In this document: in pieces, positions 17,022 to 28,523 of the stretch
Layout: every line of letters starts with the position of its first letter
Numbering within the stretch: the stretch's first letter is position 1
From: Nitratidesulfovibrio vulgaris str. Hildenborough
GTDB taxonomy: Bacteria; Desulfobacterota; Desulfovibrionia; Desulfovibrionales; Desulfovibrionaceae
NCBI RefSeq assembly: GCF_000195755.1
Contig: NC_002937.3
Span: 450,001 to 482,000, forward strand
Length of the DNA: 32,000 bases
Direction: 5' to 3'
Notes under the pieces: generated by a model
Told to the model about the DNA's origin: nothing
Databases searched by the model: none
Seen by the model: only the letters and a program-made list of their open reading frames with translations
Program-made: the position numbers and the translations under genes

Positions 17022-18140
17022 TCAGTCGGCCTCTTCGATGTAGCCGGGCGGAAGCAGGATGTCGGGGATGTCTCCCGAGACGACGCGGTTGCGCCCCTGT
17101 TCCTTGGCCATGTAGAGTTTACGGTCGGCCTTGCGGATGTGGTAGTCGGTGTGTCCTTCGCGGGAGCATTGGTGCACCCCGAAGCACAGCGTCACCCTGA
17201 TGGGGATGCCGTGGTACGAGAACGGGTACGATTCCGTGAGGGTCCGCAGTTTTTCGGCCAGACGGGTCGCCCCTTTCTCGTCGGTATCGGGCAGCAGCAG
17301 AAGGAATTCTTCACCGCCCCATCGACAGACGGTATCCTGCGCACGCATGTTCGTCCGCAGCATATCGGCCAGTTTGCGCAGGACATAGTCGCCGCATTCG
17401 TGCCCGTGCGTGTCGTTGATGGTCTTGAAGTGGTCTATATCACAGAGGATCAGTGACAGGGGCGTGTTGTTTCGCAGGGAACGTTGCCGCTCCTGTTCGA
17501 AACGTTCGCAGAGTGACCTTCGGTTCGCAAGCCCTGTGAGAGGGTCGGAACGTGCGCAGAAGGCCAACTGGTGGGTGAGGGCCAGCAGTCTGCGTTCGGA
17601 GTGCCGCCGGGCGGCTTCGGCGACCGATACGAGGGAGATGCTGGCGGTCAGGGCCAGCAGGTAGCGCGGGGCGAAGCTGTCACCATACTCGAAGGGACTG
17701 AGTTCTTCAGGGCCGTACAGGATACAGATGATACCGAAGACCAGCAGTGCCACGAGCATGCCGCCGCGCCGCAACCCGAAGGTGAAGAGCAGCAACGGTG
17801 GCAGCGAGAAGACCCACAGGTGCCCCATACCGGCGACGCCACCCGTGGCCATGAGCCACCAGTCGACGCCGATGAGGGCAAGGGCAAGCAGAAGGTTGAT
17901 ATTGCTTCGCTTTCCTGTTCTGCCGAGATGGAGCATGGAGAAGAGGGCAAGGGCGGCGATGCCGCACAACAGCAGGGCCATGCCGCCGTATCCCTGCATC
18001 CAGTCGAAGAAGGCAAGAGACAGGCAGAAGACCATGGTGACGGCGTTGAACATGTTGGCCACGCCGACGTGGTGTATGGCTTCAGGCTGCGGGGCATGGG
18101 ACAGCCCGTTGCTGAAGACCCGGTCGATGAGGGTGCGCAT
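17022..18140 (-). CDS. Membrane-anchored diguanylate cyclase (multi-TM N-terminal domain plus GGDEF)
   Basis: The N-terminal approx. 190 aa contain about 5-6 hydrophobic helices. The catalytic domain carries GGEEF and an RxxD I-site (RAQD-TVCRW-GGEEF). There is no obvious SD before the ATG at 18140, so the start is uncertain. Confidence 0.85.
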   Translation of the reverse strand: MRTLIDRVFSNGLSHAPQPEAIHHVGVANMFNAVTMVFCLSLAFFDWMQGYGGMALLLCGIAALALFSMLHLGRTGKRSNINLLLALALIGVDWWLMATGGVAGMGHLWVFSLPPLLLFTFGLRRGGMLVALLVFGIICILYGPEELSPFEYGDSFAPRYLLALTASISLVSVAEAARRHSERRLLALTHQLAFCARSDPLTGLANRRSLCERFEQERQRSLRNNTPLSLILCDIDHFKTINDTHGHECGDYVLRKLADMLRTNMRAQDTVCRWGGEEFLLLLPDTDEKGATRLAEKLRTLTESYPFSYHGIPIRVTLCFGVHQCSREGHTDYHIRKADRKLYMAKEQGRNRVVSGDIPDILLPPGYIEEAD

Positions 18141-18656: not shown

Positions 18657-20636
18657 GTGCGTGTGGTACGCCACTCTAGAGGAACCTGTAATCGGGGTTT
18701 GTATGAGGTTCGAGAATTGGCAAGAAACCGTACGTTGCAGCAGTGGGGTGTCGAAGACTCCGCTGAACTCTATGGTATCCGCAACTGGGGTGCGGGATAC
18801 TTCGATGTCGCACAGAACGGCGATGTCGTCGTATACCCCTTCGGTCATAACCGCGGTCCTGCCGTAAGCATTCCCGAGATCATCGGGGGCATGCGGGAGC
18901 GCGGCTACGACATGCCGGTGCTCCTGCGCATCGAGAACATCCTCGATTCCCAGATCACCAGTCTTCACACATCCTTTCGCAACGCCATCGGCTCGCTCGG
19001 CTACAAGGGCGAATACCGGGGCATCTTTCCCATCAAGGTCAATCAGCAGCAGCAGGTGGTCGAGAAGATCGCCCAGTTCGGTTCGCACTACCACCACGGT
19101 CTCGAGGTGGGCAGCAAGGCCGAGCTCATCGCCGCCGTCTCGCAACTGCGCGACCGCGAGGCGTGCCTCGTGTGCAACGGCTACAAGGACGAGGAGTTCA
19201 TCGACCTCGGCCTGCATGCGGTGCGTCTCGGCTTCATGTGCATCTTCGTACTGGAGATGCCGGGCGAACTCGACCTCATCCTCGAAAGGGGCGAGGCGCT
19301 CGGCGTGAAGCCCATCATCGGCGTCCGGGCCAAGCTTTCCGTCAAGGCGGGCGGGCACTGGACCGATTCGGGCGGCGAGCGTTCGACCTTCGGCCTCACC
19401 ACGTCGCAGATTGTGGACGTGGTGGACAGGCTCAAGGAAAAGGGCATGCTCGACTGCTTCAAGCTGCTGCACTACCATCTCGGGTCGCAGGTGCCCAACA
19501 TCCGCGACATCCGCGCCGCCGTCATGGAGGCTTGCCGCATCTATGCGGGCCTCGTGCAGGAAGGGGCGGCCATGGGCTTCCTCGACCTCGGCGGCGGTCT
19601 CGCCGTCGACTACGACGGTTCGCACACCAACTTCGTCAGCAGCCGTAACTACACGCTCGACGAATACTGCGCCGACATCGTCGAGGCGGTCATGACCACC
19701 CTCGACGAGCAGAACATCCCCCATCCCCATATCGTCACCGAGTCGGGGCGGGCCACCGTGGCCTACTATTCCATGCTGCTCTTCAACATCCTCGATGTGA
19801 GCCGCGTGGAGATAGGCAACCTGCCCGACGCCCTGCCCGAAGACACGCCCGAACCCGTGCGCAACATGCGCGAGGTGCTTGCGGGCATGACCCTGCGCAA
19901 CCTGCAGGAGTGCTACAACGACGCGCTCTACTACCGCGACGCCGTGCGGCAGCTCTTCCTGACAGGGCAGGTGACCCTGCGGCAGCGTACGCTCTCCGAG
20001 CGGCTGTTCTGGGCCATCATGAAGCGCATCGCGCAGGAGAAGCAGAAGCTCAAGCACGTGCCCAAGGACCTTGCCGAGATCGACGTGGCCCTCGCCGACA
20101 TCTACTACGGCAACTTCAGCGTGTTCCAGTCGCTGCCCGACTCGTGGGCCATCGACCAGCTTTTCCCCGTCATGCCCGTGCACAGGTTGCAGGAACTGCC
20201 GTCACGGCAGGGCATCCTTTCGGACATCACCTGCGACAGCGATGGCCGTATCGACCACTTCATCGACCCGCAGGGCATGAAGGGAACCCTCGACCTGCAT
20301 CCCCTGCGTGATGGCGAGGAATACTACCTCGGCGTCTTTCTCGTGGGGGCCTATCAGGAGACGCTGGGCGACCTGCACAACCTGCTTGGCGACACCAACG
20401 TGGTCAGCGTGCGCGTGCATGAGGACGGCACCTACGAGTTCGTCCGCGAGATACGCGGCGACTCCGTGGCCGACATCCTCTCCTACGTGGAGTATGATCC
20501 TCGCAGGATATACGAGGACATCCGCGAACTGGCCGAACGTGCGGTGCGCGAAGGGCGCATCACCGCCTCCGACCGTTTCCGGGTGATGCAGGCCTACGAA
20601 GACGGACTCCGCGGCTACACCTACTTCGAACGGTAA
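18657..20636 (+). CDS. speA: Biosynthetic arginine decarboxylase (PLP-dependent)
   Basis: Motifs ELYGIRNWGAGYFDV, FPIKVNQQQ, GLEVGSKAEL, HYHLGSQ, LDLGGGLAVDYDG. There is no in-frame ATG near the N-terminus. 18657 (GTG) is the outer bound. The TTGs at 18699 and 18717 (the latter 8 nt after GAGG) are plausible true starts. Confidence 0.9.
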   Translation: MRVVRHSRGTCNRGLYEVRELARNRTLQQWGVEDSAELYGIRNWGAGYFDVAQNGDVVVYPFGHNRGPAVSIPEIIGGMRERGYDMPVLLRIENILDSQITSLHTSFRNAIGSLGYKGEYRGIFPIKVNQQQQVVEKIAQFGSHYHHGLEVGSKAELIAAVSQLRDREACLVCNGYKDEEFIDLGLHAVRLGFMCIFVLEMPGELDLILERGEALGVKPIIGVRAKLSVKAGGHWTDSGGERSTFGLTTSQIVDVVDRLKEKGMLDCFKLLHYHLGSQVPNIRDIRAAVMEACRIYAGLVQEGAAMGFLDLGGGLAVDYDGSHTNFVSSRNYTLDEYCADIVEAVMTTLDEQNIPHPHIVTESGRATVAYYSMLLFNILDVSRVEIGNLPDALPEDTPEPVRNMREVLAGMTLRNLQECYNDALYYRDAVRQLFLTGQVTLRQRTLSERLFWAIMKRIAQEKQKLKHVPKDLAEIDVALADIYYGNFSVFQSLPDSWAIDQLFPVMPVHRLQELPSRQGILSDITCDSDGRIDHFIDPQGMKGTLDLHPLRDGEEYYLGVFLVGAYQETLGDLHNLLGDTNVVSVRVHEDGTYEFVREIRGDSVADILSYVEYDPRRIYEDIRELAERAVREGRITASDRFRVMQAYEDGLRGYTYFER

Positions 20637-20884
20637 CGGAAAGGGGCGCGCCCGCCGCAGGCGGGGTGTGCCCCTACCCGGTGATTCCCGGCCCGGTGCA
20701 TCATGCGTGCGTCGTGCAGGGGTGTCGTATATGCTGTGTCCGGGCTTCTCGTTCTGATGGTCCCGGAACAGAAGCAAGGTGGCGTGTGACATGGGCTGGC
20801 GTGTTGCGTCCGGCCCCGTGACAGGATCATATGGCGGCAAGTCGCCCCTCTCCGGGGGCATGTGTGCCGCAAAGGAGATGCGCT

Positions 20885-22075
<1,191 letters not shown>

Positions 22076-22085
22076 TCTGACACGG

Positions 22086-22120
22086 GACGGGGGCCGCGAG
22101 AGTGCGACCCCCGTCTTCTC
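22086..22120 (+). terminator. Terminator-like hairpin after the dehydrogenase gene
   Basis: GACGGGGG (22086-22093) / CCCCCGTC (22108-22115): an 8-bp stem with a 14-nt partly self-paired loop, then TTCTC. The U-tract is weak, so it could be an attenuator or a partial terminator. Confidence 0.4.
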
Positions 22121-22352
22121 GAATGTCGTCGCGTCCCTGCCGTAAACGGATGTGCCTATCCGCAAGCGTAAGGATCGATCGACGCAGTGGACGTATTCCG
22201 GGTTTCGTGCCGTCCCGGCGCGCCTGACCACGCCGTGGCGCAGTCTTCACCGTCAGTGCCCGTCGGTTGCCCCGTGTCGTCCGCGCACAACCTCCTGCAC
22301 AGTGGCAAGCTACCGGTAGATGCTGTCCGGCCTACCCCTATGGAGACCACCC

Positions 22353-23525
<1,173 letters not shown>

Positions 23526-23566
23526 GCAGGTGACGCGGCGTCCATTCAACGTTCAAGGAGGCACCC

Positions 23567-23956
23567 ATGTGCGGCCAGTGCGACCCGAAGAGAAGGCCCG
23601 TTGCGTCGGTGGCACCCCCGCCGGGCACTCCGCCGTCTGTGGAGGTATCCCCCGAGGCACGGGAGTACATCGCAAGGCGTGGCGGCGTGGTCAGCCTCTG
23701 GCAACGTCTGCAGGCCGGTTGCGGCTGAGCGGGGTGCGGCTCGGTATCGAGCCTCCCCGCCGTGAGCGTGGGAGAACCCGTGGCGGGCAAGATGCCCCGC
23801 GACATGCAACGGACTGAACGTGACGGGCTGGTGCTCTGGGTGGACGCCCGGCTTGAACCGGCACCGGGGGCGACTTCGGTGGTGGTGGCGTTGCGGCGGC
23901 TGTTCGGTCTCATCCCCTATCTCGACATCAAGGCGCGTGAACACCTGCGCCGCTGA
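23567..23956 (+). CDS. Candidate selenoprotein (129 codons, Sec at codon 54 encoded by the TGA at 23726-23728); function unknown
   Basis: AAGGAGG lies 5 nt upstream of the ATG at 23567. The single in-frame TGA sits in the context ...LQAGCG-[TGA]-AGCGSV.... The same frame continues open to the TGA at 23954-23956 and includes the listed 64-aa ORF (23762..23956). Third-position GC looks high on both sides of the TGA. A hairpin begins immediately 3' of the TGA. If the TGA is not recoded, the product is a 53-aa peptide. Confidence 0.6.
23729..23760 (+). other. SECIS-like stem-loop immediately downstream of the in-frame UGA
   Basis: Lower stem GCGGGG (23729-34) / CCCCGC (23755-60). Asymmetric internal loop UGC versus U. 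Upper stem GGCUCG (23738-43) / CGAGCC (23748-53). Apical loop GUAU (23744-47). All pairs were checked base by base. Confidence 0.6.
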
Positions 23957-23966
23957 AGGAACATCC

Positions 23967-24839
23967 ATGACAGACTCGCCGCACAAGCGTTTTCTGGCTT
24001 CCGAACTGGACGATATCGCGCCGGAAGAGGCCCGGTTCCATGTCATCCCCGCGCCTTTCGAAGCCTCTGTCTCGTATGGAGGGGGAACGGGCGCAGGGCC
24101 TGACGCCATCCTCGACGCCTCTGACCAGCTTGAGTTGTGGGACGGGTTATCCATCCCGGCGGCGCAGGGCATCCACACGCACCCCCCCGTGGACTGCACG
24201 GGCGACGCCGAGGCGGTTCTCGACCGCATCTCCCGAGCGACCCGAAGCGTTCTTGATGCGGGGGGGACGCCTGTCCTGCTGGGTGGTGAGCACACCGTCA
24301 CCTATGGGGCACTTGCGGCCCTGCGTGAACGGTTCGGCCGATTCGGGGTGGTGCAGTTCGATGCCCATGCCGACTTGCGCGACAGCTACGAGGGGTCGCG
24401 GTGGAGTCACGCCAGCGTGATGCGGCGTGCCGTGTCCGACCTTGGGCTACCGCTTGTGCAGTACGGGGTGCGCGCCTTGTGCACGGAAGAGGTGGCTTTC
24501 CGGCGTGAAGCCGGGGTGACGCACTGGGATGCGGCGCAACTGGCCCGTTCAGGCGTGCCTGCACGACCGCTTCCCGATGACTTTCCGGAAAGTGTCTATG
24601 TGACTTTCGATGTGGACGGCCTCGACCCTTCCATCATGCCCGCCACGGGAACGCCCGTGCCGGGTGGGCTTGGCTGGTATGATGCCCTGCGGCTGGTGGA
24701 ACGTTCCGTGTCCGGACGCAGGGTGCTCGGTTTCGATGTCGTTGAACTCGCCCCCATCGCAGGATGGCACGCCGCCGATTTCGCGGCAGCGCGGCTGGTC
24801 TACGACATCATGGGCATCATCCAGCGCATGGCCCGATGA
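23967..24839 (+). CDS. speB: Agmatinase (ureohydrolase/arginase family)
   Basis: 290 aa from the ATG at 23967, with GAAGGAA upstream. Mn-binding motifs GGEHTVT, QFDAHADLRD and VTFDVDGLDP. It starts 10 nt after the stop of the candidate Sec ORF. Confidence 0.88.
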   Translation: MTDSPHKRFLASELDDIAPEEARFHVIPAPFEASVSYGGGTGAGPDAILDASDQLELWDGLSIPAAQGIHTHPPVDCTGDAEAVLDRISRATRSVLDAGGTPVLLGGEHTVTYGALAALRERFGRFGVVQFDAHADLRDSYEGSRWSHASVMRRAVSDLGLPLVQYGVRALCTEEVAFRREAGVTHWDAAQLARSGVPARPLPDDFPESVYVTFDVDGLDPSIMPATGTPVPGGLGWYDALRLVERSVSGRRVLGFDVVELAPIAGWHAADFAAARLVYDIMGIIQRMAR

Positions 24840-25146: not shown

Positions 25147-28100
25147 TCAGGGATGGTCGAATGAAAGTTCGCCGGGCGCGACATTGACGTCGAAGCAGAC
25201 GCCCCGGCGCAGCAGGTCGAACAGCCGGTCTCCGGGTACGGCGGGACTGAAGAGAAAGCCCTGCACAACACGGCAGCCATGGTCACGCAGGAAGTGCATC
25301 TGCGCACCGGTCTCCACGCCTTCGGCGATGACGTCGAGGTCGAGATTGCGTGCCATGGCGAGCATGGTCAGGGCGATGGTGCGGCTTCCGGCCACGTGGG
25401 GCAGGTCGCGCACGAAACTCTGGTCTATCTTCAGGGTGTGCAGGGGCATGTGCTTGAGGTGGTACAGCGAGGAATACCCCGTGCCGAAGTCGTCGACGGC
25501 GAGCGTGATGCCGAGGGCCGCCAGCCGGTCGAGTCGGCGCAGGGTGCGCGTCACATCCGACATGATGGCGCTCTCCGTGATTTCGAGTTCGAGGCGCTCG
25601 GGCGGGACGCCCGTATCACGAAGCGCAGCCAGCACTCGCCCCACAAGGTCTGCGTGGCGGCATTGCACCAGTGACAGGTTCACCGCCATGGTGATGTCGG
25701 GCAGTCCTTCATCCATGAGTGCGCGGGTGAAGGCGAGTGAACTGCGAAGCATGTGTTCGCCGAGGTCGAAGATGAGGCCAAGGTCTTCGGCTACGGGAAT
25801 GAACTCGCCGGGCGAGATGCGTGTCCCATCGGGCAGTGTCCACCGGGCCAGTGCCTCGGCCCCCACGATGCGCCCGGTGGCGAGGTCCACACGGGGCTGG
25901 AAGTGCGGCACGATTTCGCCATGACGCAAGGCGTGGCGCAATCGTCCCTCGAGTTCCATGCGGCTGCGTATCCTGTCGTGGAGGTGGGGCGAGAACCGCT
26001 CATAGGTGTTCTTGCCCTGCGCCTTGGCGCGATACATGGCGAGGTCGGCGTTGGTGAGCAGTTCGTCCGGCCCCTTGCCGTCGGCGGGATGGATGGCGAT
26101 GCCGATGCTGAGCCCGACATGGAGTTCCCTGTCGAGCAGTGCGATAGGTTGCGAGAAGTGATGCAGGATGCGCTCGGCCACGAGCACGACCTCGCGTTCT
26201 TCACCGGGGTTGGCCACGAGGATGACATACTCGTCGCCCCCAAGCCGCGAGAGGGTGTCCTCGGGACGGATGAGCAGGGTGAGATGCTCTGCCACCTCGG
26301 CAATGAACTTGTCACCGGCCTCATGCCCGAGGCTGTCGTTGATGGTCTTGAAGTTGTCGATGTCGATGTACAGCAGCCCGCATAGCCTGCCCGTGCCCTG
26401 TCCCTCCTTGAGTTCGCCTGCCAGACGTTCCAGCAGCAACGCACGGTTGGGAAGTCCGGTGAGGGCGTCGTGCATCCCCTGATAGCGTATCTGCGCCTCC
26501 TTGGCCTTGAGGTCCGAGATGTCGTGGAAGAGGGCCACATAGTTGGTCGTGGCGCCCGACTCGTCGCGGATGGCACTGATGCTGAGCCATTCAGGGTAGT
26601 TCTCGCCGTTGATGCGGCGGTTCCATATCTCGCCTTCCCATGCGCCGCGTTCATGTAGCGAGTGCCACAGGCGTTCGTAGAATCCGCGGTCATGCCTGTT
26701 GGATTTGAGGATGCGCGGGTTGCGCCCCACGGCGTCGCGTTCGTTCCAGCCGGTGATGGTGGTGAATGCCGGGTTGACGGCGAGGATGGCGCCCGAGGCG
26801 TCGGTGATGAGGATGCCCTCAAGGGCATTGCGGAAGACGAGTTCGAAGAGGTTGAGGCGGTGCTCAGTGTGAATCCGCGACGAGATGTCGCGGAGTGCGA
26901 CGAGAAGGGTGCGCTCTCCCTCGATGTCCAGAGAACGGACGCTGACTTCAGCAGGGAACGCTACGCCCCCGCGGAGAAGCTCGGTACGGGTGCGCAGCGG
27001 GGTGTCTTCACTCTCCGGGACGGGCAGGGCGTGCCCTTCCCGGCATATGTCGCGGGCTTTCAGGGCCAGCAGTTCATGGCGCGACAGCCCGAGGGTGGCT
27101 TCGGCCATGCGGTTGCAATCGAGCAGGGTCCCGTCGTCCCGCTGGAGTAGCAGTCCGTCGGGCGCGTAGTCGAAGAGGGCGCGGAAGCGTGTGGAGGAGC
27201 GGTGGAGTGCCTCGTTGGCCACACGCAGTTCTTCCGTGCGGGTCGCGACCATGGCCTCGATGTTGGTGAGTCGCTGGCGCAGTCCCGCCTCGGTGTTCTT
27301 GAGGGCGGAGATTTCCATGGCGACCGTGCCGACCCCTTGCATGCCTCCGGAATGGTCGCGAACCGGGAAACGTTGCACGAGGAACGTCCTGTCGCTGCCA
27401 TCGTGTCCGTACCGCGGCAGGGTGACTTCCAGTTGTGACGGGGTGCCTTCACGCTGCATCCGTTCATTGTCGGCCGCCAGCAGCGCGGCGATGCGTTCGG
27501 GCAGGAGTTCGGCACGGTGCCTGCCGCGTGCGATGCCGTCCGGAAGGCGCAAGAGGGTGTGCCCCGCCTTGTTGAGCAACTGGACCCGCCCCTCGAAGTC
27601 CGTGAGGGCGAGCAGTCCCGGCATCTCATCCAGCAGAATCTGCCACGGGGCGTAAGGCCCCATGCCCGATGCCGGGTCGACATCGGGCGCGAAGGTGTCG
27701 TCATCCGTGTGGAGGACTATCGACAGGACCGCTGTTCCCCATGCCGTTCGCGGCAGGGGGATTGAGGTGCACCGCACGGGTTGTTCCTCTGCGGAGAGGG
27801 GGATGGTGTGCGCGTGGGCCTCCATACGCAAGAGCGTGGCCCTGTCCGCCTGCCGTAGTGCTCTGGCGCTGCTCTTGGGGAGCACGCTTTCGGGCGGGGC
27901 GTTACGGAATGCACGTTCGGGGATGCCGAAGAGCGCCGCGAAGGCGGGGCTGACGAAGCGGAAGATGGAGTCTGCGTCACGCAGGGCTACGGGCAGACCG
28001 CTATGACGGAGTGAGAGCAACGTGTCTGCAGAAGGGGGCGTGAGGTCTAGGCATACCAGAAGACCATCCTCGCCGGGAAGCGAGGTGAACGTTGCCCTGC

Positions 28101-28344
28101 ACGCTGTCGGCCCCTCGCGGCACAGCAGGAGGGCATTGCCCGACCATGGAGGGACAGGGGTGCGGGGCGTCGTCTGCAGCACTGTCTCGAGGCGTACGCC
28201 GCACACCTCTCCGAGGAGGGCCTCCCCGCTGGCGTCGGCGTGTCGTACCACGCCGTCGACGCCCACGCGCAAGACAGCGAAGTTGGTGGCTTCTGCCGTC
28301 TGAAGCGTGCGAGGTGACTGGCTGCCTTCGGGGGAAAGTCGCAT
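25147..28344 (-). CDS. Multi-PAS / GGDEF / EAL signalling protein (c-di-GMP turnover)
   Basis: The ATG at 28344 (MRLSPEGS) is preceded by GGAGG plus a 4-nt spacer. There are up to five PAS-like segments; the last has a clear PAC motif. The GGDEF signature is GGDEY. EAL motifs are intact (EALARW, EITE, DDFGTGYSSL, KIDQSF, EGVETG, QGFLFSPA). Confidence 0.88.
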   Translation of the reverse strand: MRLSPEGSQSPRTLQTAEATNFAVLRVGVDGVVRHADASGEALLGEVCGVRLETVLQTTPRTPVPPWSGNALLLCREGPTACRATFTSLPGEDGLLVCLDLTPPSADTLLSLRHSGLPVALRDADSIFRFVSPAFAALFGIPERAFRNAPPESVLPKSSARALRQADRATLLRMEAHAHTIPLSAEEQPVRCTSIPLPRTAWGTAVLSIVLHTDDDTFAPDVDPASGMGPYAPWQILLDEMPGLLALTDFEGRVQLLNKAGHTLLRLPDGIARGRHRAELLPERIAALLAADNERMQREGTPSQLEVTLPRYGHDGSDRTFLVQRFPVRDHSGGMQGVGTVAMEISALKNTEAGLRQRLTNIEAMVATRTEELRVANEALHRSSTRFRALFDYAPDGLLLQRDDGTLLDCNRMAEATLGLSRHELLALKARDICREGHALPVPESEDTPLRTRTELLRGGVAFPAEVSVRSLDIEGERTLLVALRDISSRIHTEHRLNLFELVFRNALEGILITDASGAILAVNPAFTTITGWNERDAVGRNPRILKSNRHDRGFYERLWHSLHERGAWEGEIWNRRINGENYPEWLSISAIRDESGATTNYVALFHDISDLKAKEAQIRYQGMHDALTGLPNRALLLERLAGELKEGQGTGRLCGLLYIDIDNFKTINDSLGHEAGDKFIAEVAEHLTLLIRPEDTLSRLGGDEYVILVANPGEEREVVLVAERILHHFSQPIALLDRELHVGLSIGIAIHPADGKGPDELLTNADLAMYRAKAQGKNTYERFSPHLHDRIRSRMELEGRLRHALRHGEIVPHFQPRVDLATGRIVGAEALARWTLPDGTRISPGEFIPVAEDLGLIFDLGEHMLRSSLAFTRALMDEGLPDITMAVNLSLVQCRHADLVGRVLAALRDTGVPPERLELEITESAIMSDVTRTLRRLDRLAALGITLAVDDFGTGYSSLYHLKHMPLHTLKIDQSFVRDLPHVAGSRTIALTMLAMARNLDLDVIAEGVETGAQMHFLRDHGCRVVQGFLFSPAVPGDRLFDLLRRGVCFDVNVAPGELSFDHP

Positions 28345-28523
28345 GTGGCCTCCGTTAGGGAACATCAATTTCCGAGTATATGCGAACTGTGCTCCTGCGC
28401 AACCACTTCGGCATACCTGACAGGCACGGGCTTGCCTTGCGTGTGGCAACGTGCAACTATGCGCCAGAATCAGTGAACCTCATGCTGCCCCTGCAGGGGA
28501 GCAGAACACCTATGGAGGTGCCG

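What the first reader, a model, noticed from the sequence alone, without database searches (positions are those of the whole stretch)
23567..23956. Probable selenocysteine-encoding gene hidden between nspC and speB: one in-frame UGA plus an adjacent SECIS-like hairpin
Seen in sequence: a strong RBS (AAGGAGG, 5-nt spacer) precedes the ATG at 23567. Translation runs 53 codons to the TGA at 23726, and the same frame stays open for 75 more sense codons to 23956. It ends 10 nt before the speB ATG. Codon third positions look G/C-rich on both sides of the TGA, like the flanking genes. The TGA context is Cys-Gly-[TGA]-Ala-Gly-Cys, which reads as U-x-x-C with another Cys two residues upstream. That is the kind of redox context where Sec replaces Cys. 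Starting on the nucleotide after the TGA is a 12-bp GC-rich hairpin (23729-23760). It has an asymmetric internal loop containing U and a GUAU apical loop about 18 nt from the UGA. This geometry resembles the fdhF-type bacterial SECIS (bulged U, G-U in the loop, upper stem about 10 nt after the UGA). Established knowledge: Desulfovibrio species decode Sec ([NiFeSe] hydrogenase, Sec formate dehydrogenases). Inference: this is a single 129-residue selenoprotein that ORF callers truncate to 53 aa or report as the unrelated-looking 64-aa tail ORF.
Basis: partly seen in the sequence, partly recalled or inferred. Interest (0 to 1): 0.85.

Follow-up and report, generated by a model that had tools for sequence, protein, structure and literature searches.

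The report
Unannotated selenoprotein gene in Desulfovibrio
Between two polyamine-synthesis genes of Nitratidesulfovibrio (Desulfovibrio) vulgaris lies one 129-codon gene whose in-frame UGA almost certainly encodes selenocysteine; databases split it into two "hypothetical" stubs, and it belongs to an already described small selenoprotein family of unknown function.

Summary
AAGGAGG sits at 23555-23561, the ATG at 23567, an in-frame TGA at 23726-23728, and the frame stays open to the TGA at 23954-23956. A 12-bp hairpin spans 23729-23760. The flanks are nspC and agmatinase.

The selenoprotein reading is well supported:
- All 12 distinct homologous sequences, in five clades down to 46-55% protein identity, keep the internal TGA. 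The eleven that can be read past it keep both halves in one frame; the twelfth contig ends 9 codons after the TGA. The terminal stop varies.
- Against the closest relative, 15 of 16 differences downstream of the TGA fall at third codon positions.
- The fused protein matches NCBIfam NF041239, "CC/Se motif family (seleno)protein", in one stretch across the TGA (E 2.8e-9). At 36.9 bits it is just under the 40-bit cutoff; three orthologues tested pass it.
- The TGA maps to the family's Cys/Sec position.
- The hairpin is unusually stable and its synonymous sites are conserved, but there is no covariation. Its loop lies closer to the UGA than the bacterial SECIS consensus allows.

The window matches strain Hildenborough. 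Public records hold only the 53-aa head and the 58/64-aa tail as hypothetical proteins. This is a new member of a known kind, not a new kind. Function is unknown. The U-x-x-C context is not conserved.

The parts
23555..23561 (+). Shine-Dalgarno sequence AAGGAGG, 5 nt before the start codon
   Evidence: Read directly from the sequence. GGAGG with a 5-nt spacer before the ATG is also present in L003, L005, L006 and L007.
23567..23956 (+). Complete selenoprotein gene: 53 codons, UGA(Sec), 75 codons, then the TGA stop. The product is 129 aa, a member or close relative of NCBIfam NF041239, the CC/Se motif family.
   Evidence: Translation. One HMM stretch covers residues 25-99 and spans the TGA, E 2.8e-9. 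Against L001 there are 26 synonymous and 6 non-synonymous codon changes in this frame; the next-best of the six frames has 20 and 11, and the other four have 3-4 synonymous against 27-30 non-synonymous. Orthologues keep both halves in one frame.
23567..23638 (+). N-terminal extension specific to this clade: MCGQC (a CxxC) followed by a Pro-rich linker, 24 aa
   Evidence: The alignment shows it is absent from the clade that starts MIDIKPD, while L003 keeps only GQC. It lies outside the HMM match, which begins at residue 25.
23726..23728 (+). In-frame TGA, proposed Sec codon (residue 54)
   Evidence: TGA is found at this site in all 18 sequences examined (the window and 17 loci), which give 12 distinct sequences in 5 clades. 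The terminal stop varies between TGA, TAA and TAG. A Cys placed at this site adds 3.5-3.9 bits to the NF041239 score.
23729..23760 (+). Hairpin H1, the finder's SECIS candidate: 6-bp lower stem, internal loop UGC/U, 6-bp upper stem 23738-23743/23748-23753, apical loop GUAU 23744-23747
   Evidence: MFE -23.9 kcal/mol. This is in the top 0.18% of local coding positions and the top 0.75% of synonymous recodings. The upper stem is paired in 94% of cells across orthologues with no compensatory change. Synonymous sites are more conserved here than in the rest of the gene.
23755..23772 (+). Hairpin H2, an alternative SECIS core: CCCCGC / loop CGUGA / GCG(U)GGG. It excludes the H1 lower stem but is compatible with the H1 upper stem.
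   Evidence: RNAalifold consensus; all six pairs are invariant in 9 sequences. The loop starts 32 nt after the UGA (29 nt in the MIDIKPD clade), inside the 16-37 nt consensus range, and reads CGU or GGU.
22320..23525 (+). Upstream neighbour nspC (carboxynorspermidine decarboxylase), 41 nt before the gene
   Evidence: TIGR01047, 482.9 bits. The same neighbour is found in L013 and L005/L006.
23967..24839 (+). Downstream neighbour agmatinase (speB), 10 nt after the gene
   Evidence: TIGR01230, 214.9 bits. The sequence is identical to AAS94904.1/WP_010937728.1 of N. vulgaris Hildenborough. The same neighbour is found in L001, L003, L011, L013 and L015-L017.
18657..22075 (+). Rest of the co-directional polyamine cluster: speA (18657-20636) and carboxynorspermidine synthase (20831-22075)
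   Evidence: NF003763, 836 bits; NF043000, 439 bits, which is below its 800-bit cutoff. No terminator-like site lies between nspC and speB.

Best explanation
Positions 23567-23956 are one gene. Its mRNA is translated from the ATG behind a strong Shine-Dalgarno sequence. At UGA 23726-23728, SelB with Sec-tRNA(Sec) is recruited by a stem-loop that starts on the next nucleotide. Selenocysteine is inserted as residue 54, and translation continues for 75 more codons to the real stop, 10 nt before speB.

The SelB site is either the upper stem-loop GGCUCG-GUAU-CGAGCC at 23738-23753 or the adjacent hairpin at 23755-23772.

The product is a 129-residue member, or very close relative, of the "CC/Se motif family (seleno)protein" (NCBIfam NF041239). 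The Sec sits in a Gly-rich loop, G-C-G-U-A-G-C-G-S.

The protein's function is inferred, not shown. It is most likely a small selenol/thiol redox or chalcogen/metal-handling protein. The Sec would be the reactive residue. A nearby Cys, or in some clades the N-terminal Cys, could form a selenenylsulfide with it.

Comparative sequence evidence shows the single reading frame, the conserved UGA, the family relationship and the conserved hairpin. Actual Sec insertion, the identity of the SelB-binding loop and the biochemical role are inferred.
For: **1. The internal TGA is conserved.** It is present in all 12 distinct homologous gene sequences, which come from 18 sequences (the window and 17 loci) in five clades. 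Protein identity to the window falls to 46-55%. One of these is an AT-rich contig, L009. The terminal stop of the same gene varies: TGA, TAA or TAG.

**2. Both halves stay in one frame.** This holds in the eleven sequences that extend past the TGA, despite codon-sized indels on each side of it; L009 ends 9 codons after the TGA.

**3. Purifying selection acts on both sides.**
- Window against L001 shows 34 nucleotide differences, 26 of them at codon position 3.
- Downstream of the TGA, 15 of 16 differences are at position 3.
- This frame has 26 synonymous and 6 non-synonymous codon changes. The next-best of the six frames has 20 and 11; the other four have 3-4 synonymous against 27-30 non-synonymous.

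**4. The fused protein matches NF041239 in one collinear stretch.** Residues 25-99 align to model positions 3-70, at E 2.8e-9 and 36.9 bits. Each half contributes separately, 21.1 and 14.1 bits. Three orthologues tested, from two clades, score 41.2, 43.4 and 46.5 bits against a cutoff of 40.

**5. The TGA falls at the family's Cys/Sec position.** Replacing the Cys placed at the TGA site with Ala costs 3.5 bits in L006 and 3.9 bits in L003. It costs 3.8 bits in the window protein once the neighbouring Cys are removed.

**6. The hairpin is unusual and constrained.**
- Its MFE is -23.9 kcal/mol, top 0.18% of 1,664 local coding positions.
- It is more stable than 99.25% of synonymous recodings.
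- The upper stem is conserved in all four Desulfovibrionaceae clades (L009 differs) while the loop varies.
- Synonymous sites in the hairpin codons are more conserved than elsewhere. Same-amino-acid codons are identical in 8 of 8 cases against 16 of 36, p = 0.004. In a second pair it is 10 of 10 against 41 of 68, p = 0.01.

**7. Translation signals favour a single gene.** GGAGG with a 5-nt spacer precedes the ATG in the Desulfovibrionaceae clades read upstream. No such site precedes the GTG at 23762, where the tail ORF would have to start.

**8. The host decodes Sec.** The window's agmatinase is identical to that of N. vulgaris Hildenborough. That species is listed with SelD, three FdhA, FrhA and other selenoproteins (PMC1794560).
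Against: - There is no experimental evidence of any kind: no 75Se labelling, mass spectrometry or ribosome profiling.
- No compensatory base-pair change supports the hairpin. Its stems are simply invariant, and they also encode conserved residues (GS..S[LV]PAV).
- Only 15 nt separate the UGA from the H1 apical loop, and 11 nt in the MIDIKPD clade. The published consensus is 16-37 nt.
- No Rfam family matches the region.
- About 15% of ordinary codon positions in the neighbouring genes also have some bSECIS-like hairpin.
- The window protein scores 36.9 bits, below the 40-bit curated cutoff.
- No full-length Cys-containing homologue was retrieved. All 14 profile hits and the 3 credible representative-library hits are truncated halves. 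The Cys/Sec correspondence therefore rests on the HMM perturbation test.
- The sel genes and tRNA-Sec of this genome were not examined here. None lies in the window.
Confidence: 0.88

Rival explanations
1. There are two separate small genes. The TGA at 23726 is an ordinary stop for a 53-aa peptide. A 64-aa protein is translated independently, or by re-initiation, from the GTG at 23762. This is how current records annotate the region.
For: This is what gene callers and GenBank/RefSeq report: Deval_0382 at 53 aa, AAS94903.1 at 58 aa and WP_164561321.1 at 64 aa. The hairpin could equally be a coupling or pausing element. There is no covariation and no experimental proof of read-through.
Against: - The relative frame of the two halves is kept in all eleven sequences that extend past the TGA, despite indels.
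- The internal stop is always TGA while the terminal stop varies.
- A single-domain family HMM aligns collinearly across the junction.
- The peptide between the TGA and the GTG (GS..S[LV]PAV) is conserved.
- No Shine-Dalgarno sequence precedes 23762.
Confidence: 0.06
2. The UGA is read through without selenocysteine. A near-cognate Trp or Cys is inserted at low level, stimulated by the downstream hairpin.
For: UGA is the leakiest stop codon, and a stable downstream structure can promote read-through. This would also explain the frame conservation. The spacing of the hairpin is atypical for a SECIS.
Against: - The family is curated as a Cys/Sec family, and the TGA maps to its conserved Cys position.
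- The organism has a working Sec system with at least eight selenoproteins (PMC1794560).
- If Cys were meant, TGC or TGT would be expected in some of the 12 sequences. None has it at this codon.
Confidence: 0.03
3. This is a gene inactivated by a nonsense mutation (a pseudogene), or a non-coding regulatory hairpin between nspC and speB.
For: In isolation the region looks like a broken ORF. It lies in an intergenic-looking gap of an operon.
Against: - The same TGA persists across five clades, with strong purifying selection on both sides. Downstream of it, 15 of 16 differences are at third codon positions.
- Protein-level conservation runs to the C-terminus, through the PYLD motif.
Confidence: 0.01

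Closest known systems
NCBIfam NF041239 'CC/Se motif family (seleno)protein' (Moor_selen_rel). [quoted passage not shown] 2016, PMC5029168, supplement: 8 organisms).
   Same: It is a small single-domain protein. The HMM matches in one stretch across the TGA (E 2.8e-9; orthologues score 41-46 bits). The Sec falls at the family's conserved Cys/Sec position, within a Gly-rich loop. Function is unknown for the whole family.
   Different: The window protein is just under the curated cutoff, at 36.9 against 40 bits. Its motif is C-G-U-A-G-C rather than the adjacent C-U/C-C pair; the review lists the family motif as CxxU. It carries an extra 24-aa N-terminal MCGQC/Pro-rich extension. One orthologue, L003, has no Cys next to the Sec at all. 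In Nitratidesulfovibrio and its relatives the gene sits inside a polyamine gene cluster.
E. coli fdhF-type bacterial SECIS and the bSECISearch consensus model (Zhang and Gladyshev 2005, as summarised in PMC13188914, Fig. 2A)
   Same: The stem-loop lies within the coding sequence immediately 3' of the UGA. The upper stem is 6 bp (allowed 4-16). The apical loop is 4 nt (allowed 3-9) and starts with G-U. The MFE is far below -7.5 kcal/mol.
   Different: Only 15 nt separate the UGA from the loop, and 11 nt in the MIDIKPD clade, against a consensus of 16-37 nt and 18 nt in fdhF (fdhF figure from my own count of the published sequence). The unpaired U is on the 3' side, not a 5' bulged U17. The clade-c loop is GCUGCU. 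No Rfam model matches. A second hairpin with 29-32 nt spacing could be the real SelB site.
HesB-like selenoprotein (TIGR01911) and IscA/HesB A-type carriers (PF01521)
   Same: By eye the pattern is similar: strand-helix-strand, then G-G-(C/U)-x-G, then ...E.DG..v.vD.... D. vulgaris already has a HesB-like selenoprotein (PMC1794560).
   Different: The resemblance is not supported statistically. There is no TIGR01911 or PF01521 hit at E <= 1. hhalign against E. coli IscA, alone or as a 106-sequence profile, gives a probability below 1%. I treat it as rejected.
C-terminal Gly-Cys-Sec-Gly redox centre of mammalian thioredoxin reductase (from established knowledge)
   Same: The commonest orthologue clade has exactly G-C-U-G. 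A vicinal Cys-Sec pair can form a selenenylsulfide.
   Different: There is no homology. The motif is internal rather than C-terminal. The window protein has C-G-U and L003 has G-G-U, so the vicinal pair is not a conserved requirement.

Membership tests
Bacterial selenoprotein gene (general criteria) | In-frame UGA conserved in orthologues, never TAA or TAG | tested here: met
   TGA is present in all 12 distinct sequences across 5 clades. The terminal stop varies between TGA, TAA and TAG.
Bacterial selenoprotein gene (general criteria) | Protein-coding conservation on both sides of the UGA in the same frame | tested here: met
   The frame is kept in the eleven sequences that extend past the TGA. 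Against L001 there are 26 synonymous and 6 non-synonymous codon changes, and 15 of 16 downstream differences are at position 3.
Bacterial selenoprotein gene (general criteria) | Homologues with Cys at the position of the UGA | tested here: inconclusive
   No full-length Cys homologue was retrieved. Indirect evidence is positive: the curated Cys/Sec family HMM rewards Cys at the TGA position by 3.5-3.9 bits.
Bacterial selenoprotein gene (general criteria) | SECIS stem-loop immediately downstream that fits the bSECIS consensus: loop 3-9 nt, upper stem 4-16 bp, G in the first two loop positions, 16-37 nt spacing, MFE <= -7.5 kcal/mol | tested here: inconclusive
   H1 meets the loop, stem, G and MFE criteria but has 15 nt spacing, and 11 nt in one clade. 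H2 has 32 nt spacing but is weaker, at -5.6 kcal/mol for its contiguous stem. There is no covariation. bSECISearch itself was not available.
Bacterial selenoprotein gene (general criteria) | Genome encodes selA, selB, selC and selD | not tested
   None of these lies in the window. The organism was identified as N. vulgaris Hildenborough-type, and the literature lists its selenoproteome, including SelD (PMC1794560).
Bacterial selenoprotein gene (general criteria) | Selenium demonstrably incorporated (75Se labelling or mass spectrometry) | not testable with these tools
   No paper mentioning DVU0420 was found.
NCBIfam NF041239 CC/Se motif family (seleno)protein | HMM score at or above the curated cutoff of 40 bits | tested here: not met
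   The window protein (U written as C) scores 36.9 bits, E 2.8e-9. Orthologues L003, L005 and L006 score 41.2, 43.4 and 46.5 bits and pass. Strictly, the window protein is a sub-threshold relative whose orthologues are members.
NCBIfam NF041239 CC/Se motif family (seleno)protein | Adjacent Cys-Cys or Cys-Sec motif at the conserved loop | tested here: not met
   The window has C-G-U-A-G-C, L003 has G-G-U-A-G-R, and the MIDIKPD clade has the canonical G-C-U-G. The Sec position itself matches the model.
NCBIfam NF041239 CC/Se motif family (seleno)protein | Small single-domain protein of about 90 aa (model length 91) | tested here: met
   The match covers residues 25-99 against model positions 3-70. 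The additional 24-aa N-terminal extension is clade-specific, and clade c is 103 aa.
HesB-like selenoprotein / IscA family | Significant match to TIGR01911 or PF01521, or a profile-profile match to IscA | tested here: not met
   No hit at E <= 1. hhalign probability is 0.5% and 0.06%.

The most novel reading that the evidence does not exclude
The Sec protein may be functionally tied to the spermidine/agmatinase pathway it is embedded in. For example, it could act as a metal- or redox-handling partner of the arginase-family agmatinase, using its N-terminal MCGQC motif and its Sec loop. It may also be decoded through an unusually compact SECIS, with the apical loop only 11-15 nt from the UGA, outside the current bacterial consensus. 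Either finding would be new: the first would be a first link between selenium and polyamine synthesis, and the second would extend the SECIS model in a model sulfate reducer.
Probability: 0.12. Interest if true: 0.65.

Novelty: new member of a known kind. Interest (0 to 1): 0.42.

Why it matters
N. vulgaris Hildenborough is the reference sulfate reducer. Its published selenoproteome is SelD, three FdhA, DsrE-like, GlpC, HesB-like and FrhA, and it does not include this gene. The sequence records found here carry two meaningless "hypothetical protein" stubs instead.

Recognising the gene has three practical consequences:
- It adds a ninth selenoprotein to a genetically tractable organism.
- It gives an uncharacterised selenoprotein family (NF041239) a host in which knockouts, 75Se labelling and proteomics are routine.
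- It shows that the curated cutoff and motif definition of that family miss real members. Here the motifs are C-G-U and G-G-U instead of C-U, and the score is 36.9 against a cutoff of 40 bits.

It also provides a test case for bacterial SECIS models, because the obvious hairpin sits closer to the UGA than the consensus allows.

It is not a new kind of system.

Tried and rejected
**Rfam scan.** An evalue-mode scan of 23300-24200 found no SECIS family. The only hit was a chance sRNA match on the other strand.

**Pfam.** Nothing was found for the fused protein or either half.

**Search for full-length Cys homologues.**
- The word-indexed search with the fused protein returned one truncated hit.
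- The word-indexed search with a 6-sequence profile returned 14 hits, all halves.
It found 3 short tails and 2 spurious repeat proteins.
- tblastn against plasmids found nothing.
- Exact look-up of the fused sequences with X found nothing, and U is not accepted.

**IscA/HesB relationship.** It looked appealing by eye but is rejected. hhalign probabilities were 0.5% and 0.06%. My last protein search went to IscA and returned only near-identical enterobacterial sequences, so the profile was weak.

**PDB profile search.** Only chance hits with E > 0.1.

**AlphaFold2.** The C-terminal half alone gave pLDDT 45, which is uninformative, so no fold search was run.

**Covariation.** There are no compensatory pairs, so no covariance model was built.

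**Polyamine synteny as functional evidence.** I weakened this argument for two reasons. The syntenic genomes are close relatives, with speB 74-77% identical. The one distant homologue, L009, has a transposase upstream rather than nspC.

**Literature.** No paper mentions DVU0420, and none links selenoproteins with nspC in this context. Haft's two papers on NCBIfam selenoprotein models are not held in the library.
Full report
**1. The observation**

- AAGGAGG lies at 23555-23561, followed by a 5-nt spacer and the ATG at 23567.
- There are 53 sense codons, then TGA at 23726-23728.
- The same frame stays open for 75 more codons to the TGA at 23954-23956. That is 10 nt before the ATG at 23967 of the next gene.
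- The local peptide is ...LQAGCG-U-AGCGSVSSLPAV....

The hairpin is real.
- Lower stem: 23729-23734 pairs with 23755-23760.
- Internal loop: UGC on the 5' side, U on the 3' side.
- Upper stem: 23738-23743 pairs with 23748-23753.
- Apical loop: GUAU at 23744-23747.

GC3 is 0.77 and 0.80 on the two sides of the TGA, against 0.73-0.87 in the flanking genes.

The neighbours form a co-directional polyamine cluster:
- speA, 18657-20636
- carboxynorspermidine synthase, 20831-22075
- nspC, 22320-23525
- the candidate gene
- agmatinase, 23967-24839

No terminator-like site lies between nspC and speB.

**2. Organism and current annotation**

The agmatinase is identical to AAS94904.1/WP_010937728.1 of Nitratidesulfovibrio (Desulfovibrio) vulgaris Hildenborough. 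Records of the candidate gene found in the collection (GenBank, RefSeq, UniRef) cover only three pieces:
- the 53-aa head (for example Deval_0382 in strain RCH1)
- a 58-aa tail (AAS94903.1)
- a 64-aa tail (WP_164561321.1)

All are named "hypothetical protein". This is the truncation the finder predicted, plus a shorter 58-aa tail record. AAS94903.1 is probably locus DVU0420; that assignment is from memory and was not checked. No paper in the library mentions that tag.

**3. Comparative evidence that this is one gene with a recoded UGA**

I collected 17 homologous loci (18 sequences counting the window), giving 12 distinct gene sequences in five clades:
- the window type (L001, L002, L008; 95-100% protein identity)
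- L003 (55%)
- a clade starting MIDIKPD, from N. liaohensis, Miyazaki-type strains and MAGs (46-48%)
- a clade starting MIDISSE (L010-L012)
- an AT-rich metagenome contig, L009, which is cut 9 codons after the TGA

All 12 sequences have TGA at the same place. The eleven that extend beyond it keep both halves in the same frame, despite codon-sized indels on either side. The gene's terminal stop varies:
- TGA in the window
- TAA in L003 and L005
- TAG in L006 and L007

Against the closest relative, L001, there are 34 nucleotide differences, 26 of them at third codon positions. Downstream of the TGA the figure is 15 of 16. This frame has 26 synonymous and 6 non-synonymous codon changes. The next-best of the six frames, the antisense wobble frame, has 20 and 11; the other four have 3-4 synonymous against 27-30 non-synonymous.

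GGAGG with a 5-nt spacer precedes the start codon in the window clade, L003 and the MIDIKPD clade. Nothing like it precedes the GTG at 23762, where the tail ORF would have to start.

Every database hit to either half is itself a truncated half.

**4. Family assignment**

With U written as C, the fused protein matches NCBIfam NF041239, "CC/Se motif family (seleno)protein", in one collinear stretch across the TGA. Residues 25-99 align to model positions 3-70, at E 2.8e-9 and 36.9 bits. The curated cutoff is 40 bits. The head alone gives 21.1 bits and the tail alone 14.1 bits.

Orthologues pass the cutoff:

| Sequence | Bits |
|---|---|
| Window | 36.9 |
| L003 | 41.2 |
| L005 | 43.4 |
| L006 | 46.5 |

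A 2026 review lists this family as a selenoprotein first predicted in Moorella thermoacetica (PMC13188914). An earlier census found it in 8 organisms (PMC5029168 supplement).

I could not retrieve Cys-form members, so I probed the HMM by substitution.
- In L006, changing the residue at the TGA position from C to A costs 3.5 bits. Changing the preceding Cys costs 4.5 bits.
- In L003, C to A at the TGA position costs 3.9 bits. Making the preceding Gly a Cys gains 3.0 bits.
- In the window protein the effect is buffered by the neighbouring Cys, at only -0.5 bits. It reappears at -3.8 bits when Cys52 and Cys57 are removed.

So the TGA sits at the second position of the family's Cys-Cys/Cys-Sec motif.

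The motif itself varies between clades:

| Clade | Motif |
|---|---|
| MIDIKPD clade | G-C-U-G |
| Window | C-G-U-A-G-C |
| L003 | G-G-U-A-G-R |
| L009 | F-G-U-A-G-C |

The finder's U-x-x-C redox context is therefore not conserved. Only the Sec in a Gly-rich loop is.

**5. The SECIS question**

Dinucleotide shuffling gives z = -1.08, which says little in 65-70% GC sequence. Better controls:
- Only 0.18% of 1,664 codon positions in the four neighbouring genes have a 42-nt MFE of -23.9 kcal/mol or lower.
- Only 0.75% of synonymous recodings of the same 13 codons, drawn with local codon usage, fold as well. For orthologues the figure is 5-11%.

The upper stem GGCUCG/CGAGCC is kept in all four Desulfovibrionaceae clades (L009's stem is different), with 94% of cells paired. 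The loop varies: GUAU, GUAA or GCUGCU.

Codons in the hairpin that encode the same amino acid are identical far more often than elsewhere in the gene:

| Comparison | Hairpin codons identical | Rest of gene identical | One-sided p |
|---|---|---|---|
| Window vs L006 | 8 of 8 | 16 of 36 | 0.004 |
| L005 vs L010 | 10 of 10 | 41 of 68 | 0.01 |
| Window, L003 and L006 | 5 of 7 | 7 of 29 | 0.03 |

The weaknesses:
- There is no compensatory change.
- No Rfam family matches.
- About 15% of ordinary codon positions also carry some bSECIS-like hairpin.
- The spacing is short. Only 15 nt separate the UGA from the loop in the window and L003, and 11 nt in clade c. The consensus is 16-37 nt (PMC13188914, Fig. 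2A).

A second, fully conserved hairpin lies at 23755-23772: CCCCGC, loop CGUGA, GCG(U)GGG. Its loop starts 32 nt after the UGA (29 nt in clade c) and reads CGU or GGU. That fits the consensus spacing better, but the hairpin is weaker. It excludes the H1 lower stem but not the H1 upper stem. Which hairpin binds SelB cannot be decided here.

**6. Function**

No Pfam domain, PDB relative or structural model was obtained. A tempting resemblance to IscA/HesB failed profile-profile tests, with probability below 1%.

The position nspC - X - speB - (opposite strand) PAS/GGDEF/EAL is conserved in the orthologues. But these genomes are close relatives, with speB 74-77% identical. The one distant homologue has a transposase upstream instead. 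The link to polyamines is therefore suggestive only.

My committed reading is a small selenol-based redox or chalcogen/metal-handling protein with Sec54 as the reactive residue. In this clade it could form a selenenylsulfide with Cys52, Cys57 or the N-terminal MCGQC. This is inference.

**7. Verdict**

The finder's interpretation is supported. I put the probability that 23567-23956 is a single Sec-encoding gene at about 0.88. The rivals are far less likely:
- two independent small ORFs, 0.06
- read-through without Sec, 0.03
- a pseudogene or regulatory hairpin, 0.01

The family is already catalogued, so this is a new member of a known kind. It is nevertheless absent from the published D. vulgaris selenoproteome (PMC1794560) and from the sequence records found here. 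It falls just under the curated HMM cutoff, and its SECIS geometry is atypical.

Interest is moderate. It is useful for annotation and as an experimental entry point to an uncharacterised selenoprotein family in a tractable model organism. It is not surprising in kind.

Noticed in passing
window 23755-23772: A second invariant hairpin (CCCCGC / CGUGA / GCG(U)GGG) overlaps the 3' arm of the finder's hairpin. Its loop is 32 nt from the UGA, inside the bSECIS consensus range, whereas the finder's loop is 15 nt away. The two structures are mutually exclusive in part.
   Followed up: partly
L009 2033-2215 (LSQX01304634.1, metagenome contig end): A distant homologue in an AT-rich genome reads ...KVEISPEAREYILERDGVVTVNLQTSFG-TGA-AGCTTEPV. 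It has the TGA at the same site and a different stem sequence (CAGGCU/AGCCUG) right after it. Its upstream neighbour is a 466-aa transposase-like ORF on the other strand, not nspC.
   Followed up: partly
window 23567-23638: An N-terminal MCGQC (CxxC) followed by a Pro-rich 24-aa linker is present only in the window clade. L003 keeps GQC, and the MIDIKPD clade lacks the extension entirely. It may be a resolving or metal-binding Cys pair.
   Followed up: no
window 23954-23956; L003 759-761; L005/L006/L007 gene ends: The terminal stop codon of the gene differs between clades (TGA, TAA, TAG). The internal stop is invariably TGA.
   Followed up: yes
window 18657-24839: This is a complete alternative spermidine/norspermidine pathway cluster: speA, carboxynorspermidine synthase, nspC, the selenoprotein gene, then agmatinase. 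The carboxynorspermidine synthase scores 439 bits, below its 800-bit equivalog cutoff.
   Followed up: partly
window 25147-28449 (-) and 17022-18140 (-): A 1,100-aa PAS/GGDEF/EAL protein lies convergent to speB, and this arrangement is conserved in the orthologous loci. A separate GGDEF diguanylate cyclase lies upstream of speA.
   Followed up: no
window 23419-23913 (-) and 23546-24301 (-): Long antisense ORFs of 164 and 251 aa overlap the gene. The substitution pattern shows they are not coding (3-4 synonymous against 29 non-synonymous changes). The exception is the wobble-complement frame (20 against 11), the usual high-GC artefact.
   Followed up: yes
L005/L006 (N. liaohensis and related MAGs) versus L013/L015: The selenoprotein evolves much faster than its neighbours: 47-55% identity against 74-77% for speB. 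The gaps to nspC and speB also widen, from 41 and 10 nt in the window to about 125 and 180-195 nt in the MIDIKPD clade (L013, L015); the N. liaohensis locus and a related MAG (L005, L006) show about 600 nt after nspC and no speB was identified downstream there.
   Followed up: partly
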